A stretch of 64,000 nt of DNA, taken from the IMG/VR virus record IMGVR_UViG_3300044797_000094, positions 12,388 to 76,387 of that record; one strand, 5' to 3'. Source of the DNA: a virus. Below the pieces are notes generated by a model that made no database searches, had not been told where the DNA came from, and worked only from the letters and a program-made list of their open reading frames with translations. Numbering within the stretch: the first letter of the stretch is position 1; every line of letters starts with the position of its first letter. Below are positions 32 to 4,210 of this stretch, in pieces. The position numbers were made by a program, and so were the translations under genes.

Positions 32-3000
32 GTGCGTCACTTCCGGCATTTCTCGTACGTCGCAATCCACCAGATCGCGCAGCAGTTGTCGTCAGCGACA
101 GTGACGGCGTTCGCGGACGAAGATAATCAATGGGACAATCAGTCGCGTAGAAAGTCTCTGCGGGTGAAATTCGGCAGTCTCGATCGATATAAATCCATCT
201 ACGGAAAAGAGGACGACACATCAACCAAGGCGTTAAATTCCAGTCATGCATTGATGAAGCTGCTGGCCAAGCCGAACCCGTGGGAGTCCGGATACGACTT
301 TCGATATCGGCAAACAATCCAAATCAGGCTCACTGGCGCATGCTACATTTGGAACGTGCCAAGTCAATTGCGAACGCCTGACGCTCCGAATGGCGTGCCG
401 TGCCAGCGATTCGTCATCCCAACGGCGGCCGTCACGCCGATGATGCCAACGGCGGAGTTGCCCTATGGCGGATTTCTCGTTCAGCCGTATTGCTCTCGGT
501 ACGCTCCGATCGACGAGGACAGCGGATATGTCCGTGGCTCACCTGGCTGGATGCGGCTTCTTGGCCGAGTCGTCGATGCCCGAGAAATCCAGAAGATCGG
601 CTATCCTCATCCTTTGTGGCTCGATGACTGGCAGAGTCCAATTGCGGCCGGTGATGCGTGGGTCGATATGGAAGAGGCCGTAAATCGAGCGAGGACGGCA
701 AGTACACTGAATGGCGTTGACCCGTCATTGGTCTGGGAGCTGCCGCCAAACATCAAATTGTCGCCAGACATGATGGACAGGACGCAATCGGCAATCCAGA
801 AAAAGTATGGCGGTCCATATAATCAGAGTCGAGTTTTGGTGACGGAAAGCGGAACGAAAGTCACGCCAACTTCCGGCGTCCCGAAGGACATGTGCTATCC
901 AGAGGGATTCCAGGACGTCAAAACGGCGATTCTCTCGCTTCATGGGACGCCGCCAGTCGCGGTCGCGATGCAAGAACCTGGGGCGTACGCGTCGTACATC
1001 GCGTCCCTGAAAGCGTGGAACCACGCGACGATTAATCCACTCTGCGAGAAATTTGGAGAATCCGACACGGCTCATCTCGCTCCATTCTTCGGGGAAGGTT
1101 TGACTGTTGAATACGAACCAAAAAGTATCCAAGATCCGGACAACGATCTAAAGCTTTTGACGATCCTGGCATCCACTAAAAAGGTCATCAGAGTCAACGA
1201 GCTTCGCGCCAAATGCGACATGGAGCCGCTGGAAGGACCGGAAGGCGATGCATTCGTCAATGACGACCCGGTTCCAGGAATGCCGCAAGCGAAGCCAAAT
1301 GGCGTGAATTTGGGCCGTCCGGACGCGGAAGCGTTGAAGCCGATAGTCAAGCCCGCTGAACCGACCACGCCATTCGAACGCGACGACGGGAACAAGTCAC
1401 TTTTGGCGGCATTGGAAGGATTCCGCGAAGAGGACGAGGAATTCGTCCAGCGAAAACTCGGATCGCTGATCGAGAAAGCGGTTGCGGCGAAGCTGAAATC
1501 GCTGGAGCCCGGCGAAGAACCGCGAAAGTACGCGTCGACTCAATTCAATCTGCCGGACGAACTGGCCGATCAAGTACGGAAAATGGGCCAGAGAATCGAC
1601 CTTGACGACTTGGCGGAAGACGGACTGGAGGATGAGCCTCACGTGACAATCCTTTATGGACTCACGGAATCCAGCCCCCAATCCGTCAAGCGAGCGTTGT
1701 CGGGCTTCCCTGCTGGTCGGATAGAACTTGGAATGTCGTCTCTGTTCGCGGCGAACGGAACGGAAGCGAGTCGAGGCGGTCCACAATTCGACGTCCTGAA
1801 GCTAGACGTTGGCGGCGATTACATCCATCGAATCCACGATCGACTCGCCGACAAATGCGACTACGAAGTCAGTTGGCCGCTCTACGTGCCACACGTCACG
1901 ATCGGATACCTAAGGCCCGGACGAGGCAGAAAATACGTCGGCATGACGGACGTCGAAGGCGAAACATTCCTTGCCGACAAAATGACGTTCTCGAATCAGC
2001 AAAAAGACGTGTCGGTGATTCGGCTGCAACCCCCAGTCAAATCCCGCCAGTCCATCATCGAGCGTCAATTGGCTCATTCCAACGGCAACGGACGAACGAA
2101 TGAATGGCACGGAAAAGCGTACGATCCATCGGAGGCGAGGGATGAAAGCGGAGAATGGACGGGGGGGGCTTCGCAACCTGATTCTAAGAAGCCCAATAAG
2201 CCGTCAAAAAACGCTGCGATCTGCCAGATGACCGGGCTGCCGTTCGAAGGTCGCGGGAAGAACCATCCAAAGCTGCGAGAAGTGCTTGACGACGCGATGA
2301 AGGATGGCGCCAGGAATCAGGTGATTGAAGCGATTAAGGACGCTAAAAACCGTGGAACGAACAACATTGAGGATTTTGTCCGCATCGCCAACGAGGCGAT
2401 TGGAAAAGGCAAGGAAGATCGACGTCAGGATCGCCGCGAGCAAGTCGAATTGGAGGATGATAGGCGTCGCGAATCACGGGAACGCGACGATCTAAATCGC
2501 AAACTACGCGCCGCTGGATATCGTTGGTCGAAAGAGGGAAATCAAAATTGGCGTGAAACGCCGGAGCAAACTCCGGAATCCCACTTCGAATCCAAATGGG
2601 TGCTTCGTAATCATCAAGGGGATGTCGTTTCGCTTGATGATGCCAAAAAAGAAATAGCATCCAACGAAAAGTCACTCGGCATGTCAACAGGCGTCGGCGA
2701 CGACGGCGGCTTCGCGGTCAAGCCGGAACTGCCGGGCGAACCAAGCAACGAACAGCTCAGAACCCTCTACGGAAACTGTCCGTTCTGTTCTGGCGAAGTC
2801 ACAGGTCGCGATTCCGATCGAATGACTGACACGTGCGATCAAGGTCACTCCTATCCATCGAAGCTGTCAATATTCGATCGACCGTCCGAAGGCGACGTCG
2901 CAACAAGCGCTGTGAATGACGGTCCAATGGGGAACCTGAATGGATTCGCCGATCCATCTGAGAAATCCAACGATCTGATCGACAATACGGAATTCGGGGC

Positions 3001-4210
3001 GTGCCCTCTGTGCGGCCAAGACGCGATCATGAGGGAGCGGCGATGGTACGGAAATGTGCCGTATGACTCGTGTTGCAACGGGCACGAGTTCCCGGCTGGA
3101 GTCATCGCGACTGGTGTTCCAAAAGAAAAAACAGCCAAGGCGCATCTTCAGGCTTCACGCAAGTCCTCCGCCTCTGGAGGTCAGTGGATTACACTCAAGC
3201 CCCATGGTGGTAATGAAGGCGGCTATCTGCATGTCATGATCGATGAGAGTGGCGAGATCCAATCCGGCCCGAAGGAAATGAGAGACAAGAAGCCGAACCA
3301 GATTGAATCGCACCGTGAGGTCAAGCAGAAACAGAAGTCTCCGCAGAGTCCGCAAGTTGGCACTCCCGATAGCCAAACGGTATCTCAGTCGGAGCAAACA
3401 AAAAAAGAATACCACGATAGGCTGAGCAATTTGGCATCATCGCCGGTGAAAAGCAGCAAGCCGCTCAGCGGTCATCGAAATCTCAACGAAACACACATCG
3501 TGGCGCTGAAAAACGGTGACAAGGGAGTTTGGAAACCGGCGTCAGGAGAAACATCATTCGATCACAACGGAGAGCCGATTAGACCCAACATCCCCGCTGG
3601 AACACAGCATAAGAGGGAAGCGGCCGCCAGCGCCGTTGCCGACGCTATTGGACTTCATGATCTAGTCCCAGCCACAACGCTCCGGACGATGGAAAAGGGC
3701 GAGAAGAAAGAAATCGGATCGCTGCAACATTTCTCCGAACATGGCATTCCGGCGCACGCGACCGCTCGTGACGCGAAATATGATGGCGATCGCGATCTGG
3801 CGAGAGCCGCCGCATTCGATATTCTGACGTCGAACACCGATCGTCATTTGGGAAACTGGATGGTCACGCACGGGCTAAGTGCACCGAACGATCTGTCATC
3901 GGAAAATAAAAAATACAATATTGACAAGGAGCATAAGCTCGTTTTGATTGATCACGGGCTGGCATTCCCAGAAAGCGGCGGGAATGGCCGCAGTGGATTA
4001 GTCAATATGGCTGAGCACAAAAAGCTTCCGGTGCCGAATGAAGTTCTAAAATGGGATTCAGCTTCGATCGACGAGGCAATGAAAAAAAACGGCATTGAAC
4101 CGCGGGCCAGGAGACTGGCTCTTGATCGCCTGTCGCAACTCCAGTCTCTTGCGAAAGATGGCAAGACATTCGCGGATGGTTTCAATCAGGACGTGATTCA
4201 CAGCTATTGA
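32..4210 (+). CDS. Phage portal protein (probably 5'-truncated) fused to 2H-phosphoesterase, Zn-ribbon repeats and a C-terminal PI3/PI4-kinase-like domain
   Basis: N-terminal ~410 aa has HK97-portal features (LLAKPNPW, LTGACY, SPIAA, HGTPP, RVNELRA). HVT...HVT motifs at ~1640 and ~1892. Kinase motifs WKP, REAAA, DRHLGN, LIDHG. Confidence 0.85.
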   Translation: MRHFRHFSYVAIHQIAQQLSSATVTAFADEDNQWDNQSRRKSLRVKFGSLDRYKSIYGKEDDTSTKALNSSHALMKLLAKPNPWESGYDFRYRQTIQIRLTGACYIWNVPSQLRTPDAPNGVPCQRFVIPTAAVTPMMPTAELPYGGFLVQPYCSRYAPIDEDSGYVRGSPGWMRLLGRVVDAREIQKIGYPHPLWLDDWQSPIAAGDAWVDMEEAVNRARTASTLNGVDPSLVWELPPNIKLSPDMMDRTQSAIQKKYGGPYNQSRVLVTESGTKVTPTSGVPKDMCYPEGFQDVKTAILSLHGTPPVAVAMQEPGAYASYIASLKAWNHATINPLCEKFGESDTAHLAPFFGEGLTVEYEPKSIQDPDNDLKLLTILASTKKVIRVNELRAKCDMEPLEGPEGDAFVNDDPVPGMPQAKPNGVNLGRPDAEALKPIVKPAEPTTPFERDDGNKSLLAALEGFREEDEEFVQRKLGSLIEKAVAAKLKSLEPGEEPRKYASTQFNLPDELADQVRKMGQRIDLDDLAEDGLEDEPHVTILYGLTESSPQSVKRALSGFPAGRIELGMSSLFAANGTEASRGGPQFDVLKLDVGGDYIHRIHDRLADKCDYEVSWPLYVPHVTIGYLRPGRGRKYVGMTDVEGETFLADKMTFSNQQKDVSVIRLQPPVKSRQSIIERQLAHSNGNGRTNEWHGKAYDPSEARDESGEWTGGASQPDSKKPNKPSKNAAICQMTGLPFEGRGKNHPKLREVLDDAMKDGARNQVIEAIKDAKNRGTNNIEDFVRIANEAIGKGKEDRRQDRREQVELEDDRRRESRERDDLNRKLRAAGYRWSKEGNQNWRETPEQTPESHFESKWVLRNHQGDVVSLDDAKKEIASNEKSLGMSTGVGDDGGFAVKPELPGEPSNEQLRTLYGNCPFCSGEVTGRDSDRMTDTCDQGHSYPSKLSIFDRPSEGDVATSAVNDGPMGNLNGFADPSEKSNDLIDNTEFGACPLCGQDAIMRERRWYGNVPYDSCCNGHEFPAGVIATGVPKEKTAKAHLQASRKSSASGGQWITLKPHGGNEGGYLHVMIDESGEIQSGPKEMRDKKPNQIESHREVKQKQKSPQSPQVGTPDSQTVSQSEQTKKEYHDRLSNLASSPVKSSKPLSGHRNLNETHIVALKNGDKGVWKPASGETSFDHNGEPIRPNIPAGTQHKREAAASAVADAIGLHDLVPATTLRTMEKGEKKEIGSLQHFSEHGIPAHATARDAKYDGDRDLARAAAFDILTSNTDRHLGNWMVTHGLSAPNDLSSENKKYNIDKEHKLVLIDHGLAFPESGGNGRSGLVNMAEHKKLPVPNEVLKWDSASIDEAMKKNGIEPRARRLALDRLSQLQSLAKDGKTFADGFNQDVIHSY

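What the first reader, a model, noticed from the sequence alone, without database searches (positions are those of the whole stretch)
32..4210. Portal protein as a ~1400-aa polyprotein carrying enzymatic cargo
Seen: after ~410 aa of portal the frame continues through a 2H phosphoesterase (~1525-2030), an unknown domain, two Zn-ribbon repeats (~2768-2860 and ~2992-3096), a WITL..HVMI..GEI..GP module and a kinase (~3450-4210). Lys-Ser/Lys-Ala dipeptides fall at many junctions (NKSL, LKSL, VKSR, GKAY, EKSL, EKSN, RKSS). Known: the HK97 prohead protease cleaves at Lys-Ser. Inference: the cargo is packaged with the portal ring, released by the prohead protease and injected, so counter-defence enzymes act before phage gene expression.
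Basis: partly seen in the sequence, partly recalled or inferred. Interest (0 to 1): 0.85.

Follow-up and report, generated by a model that had tools for sequence, protein, structure and literature searches.

The report
Phage portal fused to enzyme cargo
The only portal gene of this peat-metagenome phage (relatives are prophages of planctomycetes) runs on into about 1,000 residues of enzyme modules. This is a member of the "polyvalent protein" class described in 2017, but one joint copies the capsid protein's own maturation site, which gives a testable route for releasing the cargo.

Summary
One uninterrupted frame encodes, in order:
- an HK97-type portal
- a conserved helix
- a 2H phosphoesterase with both HxT motifs and a confirmed fold
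- a short tag peptide
- an orphan helical domain
- two tandem Zn ribbons
- an unverified small module
- a type-II-PI4K-like kinase with intact catalytic motifs

Two corrections. The ORF starts 155 nt upstream of the window and is 1454 aa, so the GTG at 32 is not the start. Lys-Ala is not enriched.

The kind is known. Iyer et al. 2017 (PMC5512222) described phage polyvalent proteins, including 2H-portal fusions and kinases, predicted to be packaged and injected. Relatives of this portal carry other cargo (InPase, zincin, topoisomerase IB). The kinase module sits on four different portal families and on MuF.

The prohead-protease idea gains in-silico support:
- The joint K942-SLGMSTGVGDDGGFAVKPE matches this phage's capsid protein (KTIQGMSESIGTDGGFGVIPE; hhalign E 2e-6).
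- It also matches HK97's known cut site (NK|SLGSD).
- The motif is conserved in three relatives.
- KS-hydrophobic triplets are about threefold enriched in portal, protease and capsid proteins.

Packaging, cleavage, injection and counter-defence remain untested. This scan has reported similar portal-cargo fusions on other DNA.

Verdict: a new member of a known kind, of moderate interest.

The parts
1..1255 (+). Portal domain of the 1454-aa protein P0002 (residues 1 to about 470). The ORF starts 155 nt upstream of the window, at record nt 12233.
   Evidence: PF04860 E 3e-26; phrog_2662 and phrog_12. ORF start. Only portal match in the record. RRK103-S104-L is invariant in 10 relatives.
1262..1504 (+). 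Disordered Pro/Ala linker (residues 473-516), followed by a conserved helix K517-SLLAALEG...AVAAKLK551-SL. The helix is bounded by two KSL triplets.
   Evidence: Conserved in P0003, P0004 and P0005. K517 is invariant in alignment A1. Model shows a helix at 518-553 flanked by low pLDDT.
1517..2038 (+). 2H phosphoesterase domain (residues 558-731), with HVTIL at 599 and HVTIG at 683.
   Evidence: PF13563 E 2e-4, below its cut-off here but above it in orthologue P0004. phrog_755. pLDDT 85-93. Foldseek matches 1jh6, Usb1, LigT, cGAMP PDE and Acb1.
2114..2173 (+). Tag peptide K757-AYDPSEARDESGEWTGGAS in a disordered linker.
   Evidence: Recurs in the Topo IB protein P0025, at the end of the gene at window 10009-10932, and in portals and MuF-like proteins of relatives.
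2255..2512 (+). Orphan helical domain (residues 804-889; three helices, the last about 48 residues long and highly charged).
   Evidence: pLDDT 86-91. No relatives. Absent from P0003, where the flanking motifs are adjacent.
2669..2728 (+). Copy of the capsid maturation-site region: K942-SLGMSTGVGDDGGFAVKPE.
   Evidence: BLASTP against the MCP gives E 8e-4. hhalign against the MCP profile gives E 1.9e-6, prob 89.6. Conserved in P0003-P0005. The DGGF.V.P pattern occurs only here and in the MCP across all six frames of the record. HK97 gp5 reads NK|SLGSDADSAGSLIQP.
2777..3097 (+). Two tandem Zn ribbons, CPFC..C..GH (residues 978-1005) and CPLC..CC.GH (residues 1053-1084).
   Evidence: Both align to the single ribbon of P0003 and P0005. 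The first is modelled as beta strands at pLDDT about 60-68.
3185..3271 (+). WITLKPHGG..HVMIDESGEIQSGP stretch (residues 1114-1142). Its status as a domain is unverified.
   Evidence: Present in the sequence. No relatives. Low pLDDT.
3413..4210 (+). Type-II-PI4K-like kinase domain (residues about 1190-1454) and the stop codon. Motifs: GVWK1230P, D1332RHLGNW, ID1369HG.
   Evidence: PF00454 32.2 bits, above its cut-off. TIGR03843 E 9e-7. Model pLDDT 88. Foldseek PI4KII alpha/beta E 1e-10, then Fam20C and CtkA. 932 representative clusters of relatives.
4231..5811 (+). Next gene, P0025: an N-terminal domain, the same tag (window 4504-4575), a linker, and a type IB topoisomerase core (AHVLGN, SLKSY509). 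Probably a sister cargo protein.
   Evidence: PF01028 E 3e-8, above its cut-off. Tag match. In relative P0005 the Topo IB is fused to the portal polyprotein.
24072..25508 (+). Prohead protease (about residues 40-200; H84, S142) fused to an acidic and coiled-coil scaffold-like tail. IYK205-SLSAV is conserved at the end of the protease core.
   Evidence: NF045541, protease part, E 3.5e-8. phrog_617 N-terminal part. MAFFT alignment with HK97 gp4 aligns H65 and S114. KSL is conserved in relatives.
25566..26951 (+). HK97-fold major capsid protein with an N-terminal region of about 150 aa. K147-TIQGMSESIGTDGGFGVIPEF lies at window 26004-26069.
   Evidence: PF05065 E 2e-40. Motif and three invariant KS in the N-terminal region.

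Best explanation
This is a phage-type polyvalent protein anchored on the portal.

Shown:
- One 1454-aa polypeptide joins the phage's only portal to a 2H phosphoesterase, a helical domain, two Zn ribbons and a PI4K-II-like kinase.
- Closely related portals carry different cargo behind the same conserved joints.

Inferred, step 1 (placement). The C-terminus of a portal (the crown) faces the capsid interior. This is established for tailed-phage portals. Twelve cargo chains are therefore built into each procapsid.

Inferred, step 2 (release). The HK97-family prohead protease encoded at 24072-25508 cuts after Lys in K|(S/A/T)-hydrophobic sites before DNA is packaged. Candidate sites are:
- K517|SLL
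- K551|SLE
- K757|AYD, the start of the tag
- K942|SLGMS, the copy of the capsid protein's own maturation region

Cleavage would free the portal channel and leave separate modules in the head.

Inferred, step 3 (action). The modules leave with the DNA and act before phage genes are expressed.
- The 2H enzyme most likely destroys 2',3'-cyclic or 2'-5'/3'-5' cyclic-oligonucleotide signals or RNA ends.
- The kinase most likely phosphorylates host proteins.
For: Architecture and domain identities.

Single portal gene in the record.

Relatives with swapped cargo:
- portal+InPase+ZnR+zincin
- portal+2H+ZnR
- portal+InPase+ZnR+Topo IB

The kinase module is carried by 14 of 39 sampled proteins that have a portal domain, from four Pfam portal families. 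Another 8 carry MuF. It occurs beside InPase, 2H, ART-PolyVal and Acb1.

Joint K942-SLGMS..DGGF.V.PE compared with the MCP:
- K147-TIQGMS..DGGF.V.PE.
- The same pairing is seen in two related phages. The residue before DGGF matches between cargo and MCP in both (A/A, S/S).
- The HK97 gp5 site NK|SLGS was read from NC_002167.

Statistics on candidate cut sites:
- KSL occurs 4 times against 0.5 expected.
- All 7 KS in residues 471-1195 lie in low-confidence linkers.
- KS-hydrophobic triplets number 11 in portal+protease+MCP against 3.4 expected from the rest of the genome (P 9e-4).

Protease:
- Catalytic His and Ser are conserved.
- The KSL at its domain end is conserved across the clade.

Literature:
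- The class was predicted to be packaged and injected (PMC5512222).
- A polyvalent protein was detected in virions of phi24B by proteomics (bioRxiv 10.64898/2026.04.10.717836).
Against: There is no experimental evidence for packaging, cleavage or ejection of this protein.

Weaknesses in the cut-site argument:
- The protease's specificity is inferred from HK97 and from motif recurrence only.
- The phage's own MCP has K-T, not K-S, at the aligned site.
- Linkers are rich in K and S anyway, so the enrichment is modest (P about 0.02-0.03 for KS).
- The MCP-site copy occurs only in the four closest proteins. It is absent from the Schlesneria prophage portals, which use the PRDxxG(K/R)(W/F) tag instead.

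Folded modules of 20-30 kDa would have to unfold to pass through the tail.

No cis peptidase is present, unlike many polyvalent proteins.

The enzyme substrates are unknown.
Confidence: 0.55

Rival explanations
1. The cargo stays covalently attached. The 12 chains remain tethered to the portal crown as an inner body, which might organise DNA, act as a plug, or hold enzymes that work inside the head. They would be threaded out only while still attached, or not at all.
For: - No cis peptidase is present in P0002.
- N4 vRNAP-type polyvalent proteins are packaged unprocessed (PMC5512222, section 8).
- The long charged helix and the Zn ribbons could bind DNA.
Against: - Twelve tethers of about 110 kDa each at the channel mouth would probably hinder DNA entry.
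- The joints carry conserved protease-site-like motifs that match the MCP and HK97 sites.
- The enzymes (2H, kinase) have no obvious substrate inside a capsid.
Confidence: 0.15
2. The cargo acts in the producing cell, late in infection. The fusion only couples expression to the late head operon. The modules are cut off or work in cis in the cytoplasm, for example by quenching abortive-infection signals, and are not delivered to the next host.
For: - 2H enzymes such as Acb1 act in the infected cell as free proteins. Acb1 and a phage PDE are among the structural matches.
- Nothing here shows packaging.
Against: - The same modules recur specifically on portals of four families and on MuF, both of which are internal head components. 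Mere co-expression would be hard to reconcile with that.
- A joint that copies a procapsid-internal maturation site implies processing inside the procapsid.
Confidence: 0.15
3. The cargo is an RNA-healing cassette. The 2H domain (a cyclic phosphodiesterase) and the kinase together would repair tRNAs cut by host anticodon nucleases, as in the healing half of Trl1 or T4 Pnkp.
For: - The best structural match of the 2H domain is a plant tRNA-splicing CPDase, and LigT also matches.
Against: - The kinase has a protein/lipid-kinase fold (PI4KII, Fam20C, CtkA), not a P-loop polynucleotide kinase fold.
- No RtcB or Rnl-type ligase was found in the record, which is 72% complete.
- Iyer et al. likewise found no ligase association for polyvalent 2H domains.
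Confidence: 0.08
4. The long ORF is an assembly chimera that joins modules from different co-occurring phages.
For: Logan contigs of the probable source run break at window 1540-1565 and leave 3283-3314 uncovered. Both places are module joints.
Against: - The three contigs have equal depth (9.6-11.2), 100% identity, and no loose ends or alternative joints.
- A contig from a second peat study spans 1513-1663.
- P0004 aligns colinearly at 51% identity from the portal through the 2H domain.
- Portal-to-kinase fusions are common elsewhere.
- Composition is uniform.
Confidence: 0.04

Closest known systems
Phage-type polyvalent proteins (Iyer, Burroughs, Anand, de Souza, Aravind 2017, J Bacteriol, PMC5512222)
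   Same: - Several unrelated enzymatic domains sit in one polypeptide that is fused to a head protein.
- The paper explicitly lists 2H domains fused to MuF or portal domains, InPase, and an atypical kinase in (pro)phages of the PVC group and Bacteroidetes.
- These proteins are predicted to be packaged, processed and injected.
   Different: - There is no zincin or assemblin domain in cis, so processing would have to be in trans by the prohead protease.
- One joint copies the MCP maturation region. I did not find this described in the papers I read.
- I could not confirm whether the kinase is the same family as their 'C-lobe-less' kinase.
MuF polymorphic toxins (Jamet et al. 2017, PMC5576092)
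   Same: A head-internal, portal-associated carrier domain is followed by a variable C-terminal enzymatic domain, encoded in the packaging module.
   Different: - The carrier here is the portal itself, so there would be 12 copies rather than 1-2.
- There are several cargo domains.
- No immunity gene is evident.
- A separate weak MuF-like gene lies at window 10009-10932.
HK97 gp5 delta-domain removal by the gp4 protease (K103|S104)
   Same: - The capsid is HK97-fold.
- The protease is related to gp4, with His and Ser aligned.
- The site text K|SLG is identical to HK97's.
   Different: In HK97 the known substrates are the capsid protein and the protease itself. Here the site would lie inside a portal-fused cargo chain. 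Cleavage is not shown.
T4 internal proteins/Alt and the ejection proteins of SPN3US/phiKZ-like phages, processed by prohead proteases
   Same: Enzymes and other proteins are loaded into the prohead, trimmed by the prohead protease and ejected with the DNA (PMC10052503 and PMC9958956, abstracts; T4 Alt as cited).
   Different: - Those proteins are targeted by N-terminal propeptides or the scaffold core and are cut at x-x-E motifs, according to established knowledge of T4 gp21 and phiKZ gp175.
- Here the targeting is by covalent fusion to the portal, and the candidate sites follow Lys.
Viral 2H phosphodiesterases (phage Acb1, poxvirus cGAMP PDE) and the T7 gp0.7 kinase
   Same: - The 2H fold and both HxT motifs are shared, and the structural matches include Acb1 and poxin-like PDE.
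- T7 gp0.7 is the precedent, cited by Iyer et al., for a phage kinase acting on host proteins.
   Different: - There is no Pfam Acb1 match.
- The kinase has a PI4K-II-like fold, unlike T7 gp0.7.
- Substrates are unknown, and delivery would be as pre-made protein.

Membership tests
Phage-type polyvalent protein (Iyer et al. 2017) | Two or more domains of disparate biochemical activity in one polypeptide | tested here: met
   2H phosphoesterase, Zn ribbons and kinase lie in one open frame.
Phage-type polyvalent protein (Iyer et al. 2017) | Encoded by a phage with a portal-terminase packaging system, in or fused to virion components | tested here: met
   The protein is fused to the portal. TerL lies at L002:5419-6951, and the protease and MCP lie in the window.
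Phage-type polyvalent protein (Iyer et al. 2017) | Modular shuffling of domains among relatives | tested here: met
   P0003, P0004 and P0005 have different cargo on the same portal and joints. The kinase occurs on four portal families and on MuF.
Phage-type polyvalent protein (Iyer et al. 2017) | Carried in the virion and delivered into the host with the DNA | not testable with these tools
   This needs virion proteomics and infection assays.
Phage-type polyvalent protein (Iyer et al. 2017) | Zincin-like metallopeptidase for self-processing (frequent in the class, not obligatory) | tested here: not met
   No peptidase family is found in P0002. Relative P0003 has a weak ATLF-like match.
HK97-type portal (Pfam PF04860) | Profile match above the curated cut-off | tested here: met
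   92.7 bits against a cut-off of 39.1. It is the only such match in the record.
2H phosphoesterase superfamily | Two H-x-T/S motifs on a duplicated alpha+beta lobe fold | tested here: met
   HVT at residues 599 and 683. The confident model matches 1jh6, Usb1 and LigT.
2H phosphoesterase superfamily | Pfam PF13563 match above the curated cut-off | tested here: inconclusive
   21.7 bits against a cut-off of 27 in P0002. Orthologue P0004 scores 31.3 and aligns at 51% identity across the domain.
Anti-CBASS Acb1 family | Pfam PF23474 match | tested here: not met
   No match in P0002. There is only fold-level similarity, at rank 37.
PI3/PI4-kinase-like kinases (type II PI4K-like) | Profile match above the cut-off, plus the N-lobe Lys, the DRHxxN catalytic loop and the metal-binding D-x-G | tested here: met
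   32.2 bits against 27.1. GVWK1230, D1332RHLGN and ID1369HG are present and are invariant or nearly invariant in 30 relatives. The fold matches PI4KII alpha/beta at E 1e-10.
PI3/PI4-kinase-like kinases (type II PI4K-like) | Phosphoinositide substrate | not testable with these tools
   The next-best structural matches are protein kinases (Fam20C, CtkA). A protein substrate is at least as likely.
HK97-family prohead protease (for window 24072-25508) | Catalytic His and Ser aligned with HK97 gp4 H65 and S114 | tested here: met
   MAFFT aligns H84 and S142 as invariant columns. NF045541, protease part, E 3.5e-8.
HK97-family prohead protease (for window 24072-25508) | Significant pairwise, profile or Pfam match | tested here: not met
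   No Pfam family. BLASTP and hhalign against gp4 are not significant. No PDB sequence match.
T4-type capsid-targeting-sequence cargo | N-terminal propeptide removed at a (L/I)-x-E site | tested here: not met
   The cargo is C-terminal to the portal, and the recurring motif is K-(S/A/T)-hydrophobic.

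The most novel reading that the evidence does not exclude
HK97-like phages of planctomycetes may use a general 'tether, tag and cut' system for loading enzymes into the head.
- Enzymes are tethered to the portal or to MuF.
- Each module starts with a K|(S/A/T)-hydrophobic protease site.
- That site is followed either by a copy of the capsid protein's own maturation region (SLGMS..DGGF.V.PE) or by the tag (A/S)(F/Y)(D/N)xSxPRDxxG(K/R/E)(W/F)T.
- The capsid protease, by substrate mimicry, would release a swappable set of enzymes (2H, kinase, InPase, Topo IB, GNAT) that are injected ahead of gene expression.
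Probability: 0.4. Interest if true: 0.65.

Novelty: new member of a known kind. Interest (0 to 1): 0.4.

Why it matters
If the cargo is cut loose and injected, this phage arrives with a pre-made phosphodiesterase and kinase, and probably a topoisomerase IB from the next gene. These could disarm nucleotide-signalling or other defences before any phage gene is read.

The concept was published in 2017. The value here is a concrete, cheap test: four named Lys sites, a named protease with a named catalytic serine, and a joint that copies the capsid's own maturation site.

There is also a possible experimental system. The cultured strain Schlesneria sp. T3-172 carries two prophages with related portals (L021 and L023). 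Only L021's portal carries cargo.

The conserved tag and site could also be used to find head-packaged effectors in metagenomes.

Tried and rejected
Searches that found nothing:
- Single-sequence locus search in viral contigs. An alignment was needed.
- PDB sequence search for the 2H domain and for the protease profile.
- BLASTP and hhalign of the protease against HK97 gp4 were not significant. Homology rests on NF045541 and the MAFFT alignment.
- ESM Atlas gave no usable hit for residues 786-940 and only sub-threshold hits for 940-1150.
- The word-index search for the WITL module (1085-1150) found only the query.

Weak results I do not claim:
- The match of residues 838-963 to TIGR01554 major_cap_HK97 (E 0.055) could suggest a delta-domain-like helix. 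hhalign supports only the 20-residue motif, so I do not claim delta-domain homology.

Other checks:
- RtcB and Rnl-type ligases are absent from the 72%-complete record.
- No RNA holder is listed among the sequencing runs.
- The 32-nt stretch at window 3283-3314 is not covered by Logan contigs, and most of the ORF is uncovered in run X2.
- The model of residues 420-1195 was of low confidence outside the 2H and helical domains. The second Zn ribbon and the WITL stretch therefore have no structural support.
- No complex prediction was run, because enzyme-substrate pairs are not suited to that test.

Full report
**Location and reading frame**

The window is bases 12388-76387 of a 76,387-bp IMG/VR virus record, which is linear and estimated 72% complete. 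The frame of the finding is open from window base 2 to the stop at 4210 and runs off the 5' end. In the full record the ORF is L002:12233-16597. It starts with ATG nine bases after GGAGAGAGAC and encodes 1454 aa (P0002). Residue r of P0002 starts at window base 3r-157. Composition is even across the ORF.

**Domains**

- Portal. Pfam gives Phage_portal (PF04860, E 3e-26) and PHROGs gives portal families. It is the only PF04860 match in the record.
- Kinase. PI3_PI4_kinase scores 32.2 bits, above its cut-off.
  - With an alignment of 30 relatives, the kinase part folds at pLDDT 88.
  - Its best structural matches are human type II PI4 kinases (E 1e-10, TM 0.66). Next come the protein kinases Fam20C and H. 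pylori CtkA.
  - GVWK1230P, D1332RHLGNW and ID1369HG are present and are conserved in relatives.
- 2H phosphoesterase.
  - The 2_5_RNA_ligase2 match scores 21.7 bits, below its cut-off.
  - The model of residues 420-1195 is confident for 558-731. This part matches Arabidopsis CPDase, Usb1, LigT, poxvirus cGAMP phosphodiesterase and phage Acb1.
  - Both HxT motifs are intact, at 599 and 683.
- Other parts of the 420-1195 model.
  - There is a confident three-helix domain at 804-889, which has no relatives.
  - The first Zn ribbon has moderate support.
  - The second ribbon and the WITL..GEI..GP stretch have none.
- Zn ribbons. The two ribbons (978-1005 and 1053-1084) are a tandem duplication of the single ribbon seen in relatives.

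**Relatives**

A search of 5.8 billion proteins found 18 long portals of the same family. The closest share 46-51% identity over the portal and carry different cargo:

| Protein | Cargo after the portal |
|---|---|
| P0003 | InPase, Zn ribbon, ATLF-like zincin |
| P0004 | 2H, Zn ribbon |
| P0005 | InPase, Zn ribbon, type IB topoisomerase |
| P0006-P0019 | About 500 residues of unassigned sequence; one has a weak GNAT match |

In this phage the topoisomerase IB is the separate next gene (window 4231-5811).

Genome relatives of the portal are prophages of Schlesneria and other Planctomycetaceae. Sequencing runs holding the stretch are peat metagenomes. Some portals of the clade have no cargo at all (473-583 aa).

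The kinase module has 932 representative clusters of relatives. Of 39 sampled carriers, 14 have a portal domain from four different Pfam portal families, and 8 have MuF. InPase, 2H, ART-PolyVal and Acb1 occur alongside.

This is the pattern that Iyer et al. 2017 named polyvalent proteins. They explicitly list 2H domains fused to MuF or portal, InPase, and an atypical kinase in PVC-group prophages. They predicted packaging, processing and injection (PMC5512222). A polyvalent protein has since been found in phi24B virions by proteomics.

**Joints**

Three motifs are conserved between P0002 and P0003-P0005 although the cargo between them differs.

1. After a disordered linker comes a helix, K517-SLLAALEG..D.EF......E.AVAAKLK551-SL. 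The cargo diverges immediately after it.
2. The motif K-SLGM(S/N)xxxGxDGGF(A/T)V precedes the Zn ribbon (K942 in P0002).
3. The tag K757-AYDPSEARDESGEWTGGAS is the third motif.
   - It recurs in the topoisomerase protein.
   - It recurs at the very end of the gene at window 10009-10932.
   - In the form K(A/S/T)F(D/N)xSxPRDxxG(K/R)(W/F), it recurs in portals and MuF-like proteins of relatives.

Motif 2 is a copy of part of the capsid protein.

- This phage's MCP reads K147-TIQGMSESIGTDGGFGVIPEF, just before the Pfam capsid domain.
- BLASTP of the MCP against P0002 finds this stretch and nothing else (E 8e-4).
- A profile of three MCP N-terminal regions matches it with E 1.9e-6 and probability 89.6.
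- The pattern DGGF.V.P occurs in only these two places in all six frames of the record.
- In the two relatives whose MCP I could fetch, the pairs are:
  - GIGADGGFTV (MCP) and GVGADGGFTV (cargo)
  - DGSDGGFAV (MCP) and NGSDGGFTV (cargo)
  This hints at co-variation, but with n = 3.
- HK97 gp5, read from NC_002167, has TFNK|SLGSDADSAGSLIQP at the place known to be cut by gp4 between K103 and S104 (the cut site is established knowledge). The cargo joint therefore reads like the HK97 site itself.

**The protease**

Window 24072-25508 encodes 478 aa directly upstream of the MCP.

- Pfam finds nothing. BLASTP and hhalign against HK97 gp4 fail.
- NCBIfam NF045541 (prohead protease/MCP fusion) matches its protease part at E 3.5e-8.
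- A MAFFT alignment with gp4 puts H84 and S142 on gp4's H65 and S114. The DxxGD, NH, SV and LxExS..N..A columns are invariant.
- The rest of the protein is acidic and coiled-coil, like a scaffold.
- A conserved (I/M/L)-K-S-L-x-A follows the protease core in all five proteases examined. This is a candidate self-cleavage site.

**Statistics on Lys-Ser**

| Measure | Observed | Expected | P |
|---|---|---|---|
| KS in P0002 | 13 | 7.3 | 0.03 |
| KSL in P0002 | 4 | 0.5 | 0.0015 |
| KA in P0002 | 5 | 7.7 | not enriched |
| KS in low-confidence linkers, residues 471-1195 | 7 of 7 | 2.6 | - |
| KS + L/F/I/W/M/V in portal, protease and MCP | 11 | 3.4 (rate in 77 other ORFs) | 9e-4 |

The MCP N-terminal region has three invariant KS. 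HK97's delta domain has KSF, KSW and KSL.

All candidate sites fit K|(S/A/T)-hydrophobic. The evidence is consistent but circumstantial, because linkers are K- and S-rich anyway.

**Assembly check**

- Logan contigs of the probable source run cover window 1-1565, 1540-3282 and 3315-4300.
  - They show 100% identity, similar depth, and no indels, joints or loose ends.
  - The breaks fall at module joints, and 32 bases are not covered.
- A second peat study holds pieces at 99% identity or more, including one across the portal-linker/2H joint.
- P0004 aligns colinearly from the portal through the 2H domain.

I rate a chimera as unlikely (about 4%).

**Mechanism**

Shown: the fused architecture, the intact catalytic motifs, the modular relatives and the shared motifs.

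Inferred from established portal structure: the C-terminal crown faces the capsid interior, so the cargo is placed inside the procapsid in 12 copies.

Inferred from the motifs: the prohead protease cuts at K517, K551, K757 and K942 before packaging, frees the channel and leaves separate modules.

Inferred from the class and from T4, N4 and phiKZ-like precedents: the modules are ejected and act early.

On function:
- No RNA ligase is present in the record, and the kinase does not have a polynucleotide-kinase fold.
- I therefore favour signal or RNA-end hydrolysis for the 2H domain and protein phosphorylation for the kinase, over an RNA-repair pair.

**Novelty**

The kind is known, and this scan has already reported similar portal-cargo fusions on other DNA. 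These include a planctomycete-phage clade and 'tag and cut-site' cases. My tests here were made independently of those notes.

The feature I did not find in the papers I read is the copy of the MCP maturation region inside the cargo. It turns the protease hypothesis into a direct experiment.

Noticed in passing
window 4231-5811: A 526-aa protein has a eukaryote/poxvirus-type topoisomerase IB core (PF01028, above its cut-off; AHVLGN and SLKSY509 are present). It carries the same EARDxxGEWT tag at window 4504-4575. In relative P0005 the Topo IB is fused to the portal polyprotein. It may therefore be a head-packaged topoisomerase, as in poxvirus virions.
   Followed up: partly
window 10009-10932: A 307-aa protein with a weak MuF match (E 0.04) ends ...KAFNVSEPRASDGE, with a TAG stop exactly where the tag's Trp codon would be. 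Its orthologue in L003 (14463-15938) reads KAFNVSEPRTEDGKWT and continues for about 170 more residues. This is either a nonsense-truncated cargo carrier or a natural end inside the tag.
   Followed up: partly
window 9391-9972: A stand-alone GNAT acetyltransferase (PF00583, E 5e-15) lies between the portal-cargo gene and the MuF-like gene. One related portal has a weak GNAT-like match in its cargo (P0019).
   Followed up: no
L002:11342-12190 (record coordinates, just upstream of the portal gene): A 282-aa protein has two Clp_N repeats (PF02861, E 3e-25), immediately before the portal-cargo gene.
   Followed up: no
window 4210-24072: About 20 kb separate the portal gene from the protease and capsid genes. 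The interval holds a C-methyltransferase (12766-13986). According to earlier unchecked notes it also holds sugar-nucleotide genes and a type IV-B CRISPR-like set. TerL lies about 5 kb upstream of the portal. The head module is unusually dispersed.
   Followed up: no
window 1540-1565 and 3283-3314: Independent Logan contigs of the source run break at exactly two module joints of the ORF: before the 2H domain, and after the WITL stretch. This could reflect co-occurring variants with other cargo.
   Followed up: partly
L021 and L023 (Schlesneria sp. T3-172, NZ_CP172346): A cultured, completely sequenced planctomycete carries two prophages with related portals. The L021 portal is 977 aa with an InPase-like region, the tag and a C-terminal domain. 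The L023 portal is 473 aa and has no cargo. This is a possible experimental system.
   Followed up: partly
P0002 residues 102-104 (window 149-157): RRK-S-L in the N-terminal part of the portal is invariant in 10 relatives. It could be a further protease site, since N-terminal trimming of portals is known for lambda gpB, or it could be structural.
   Followed up: no
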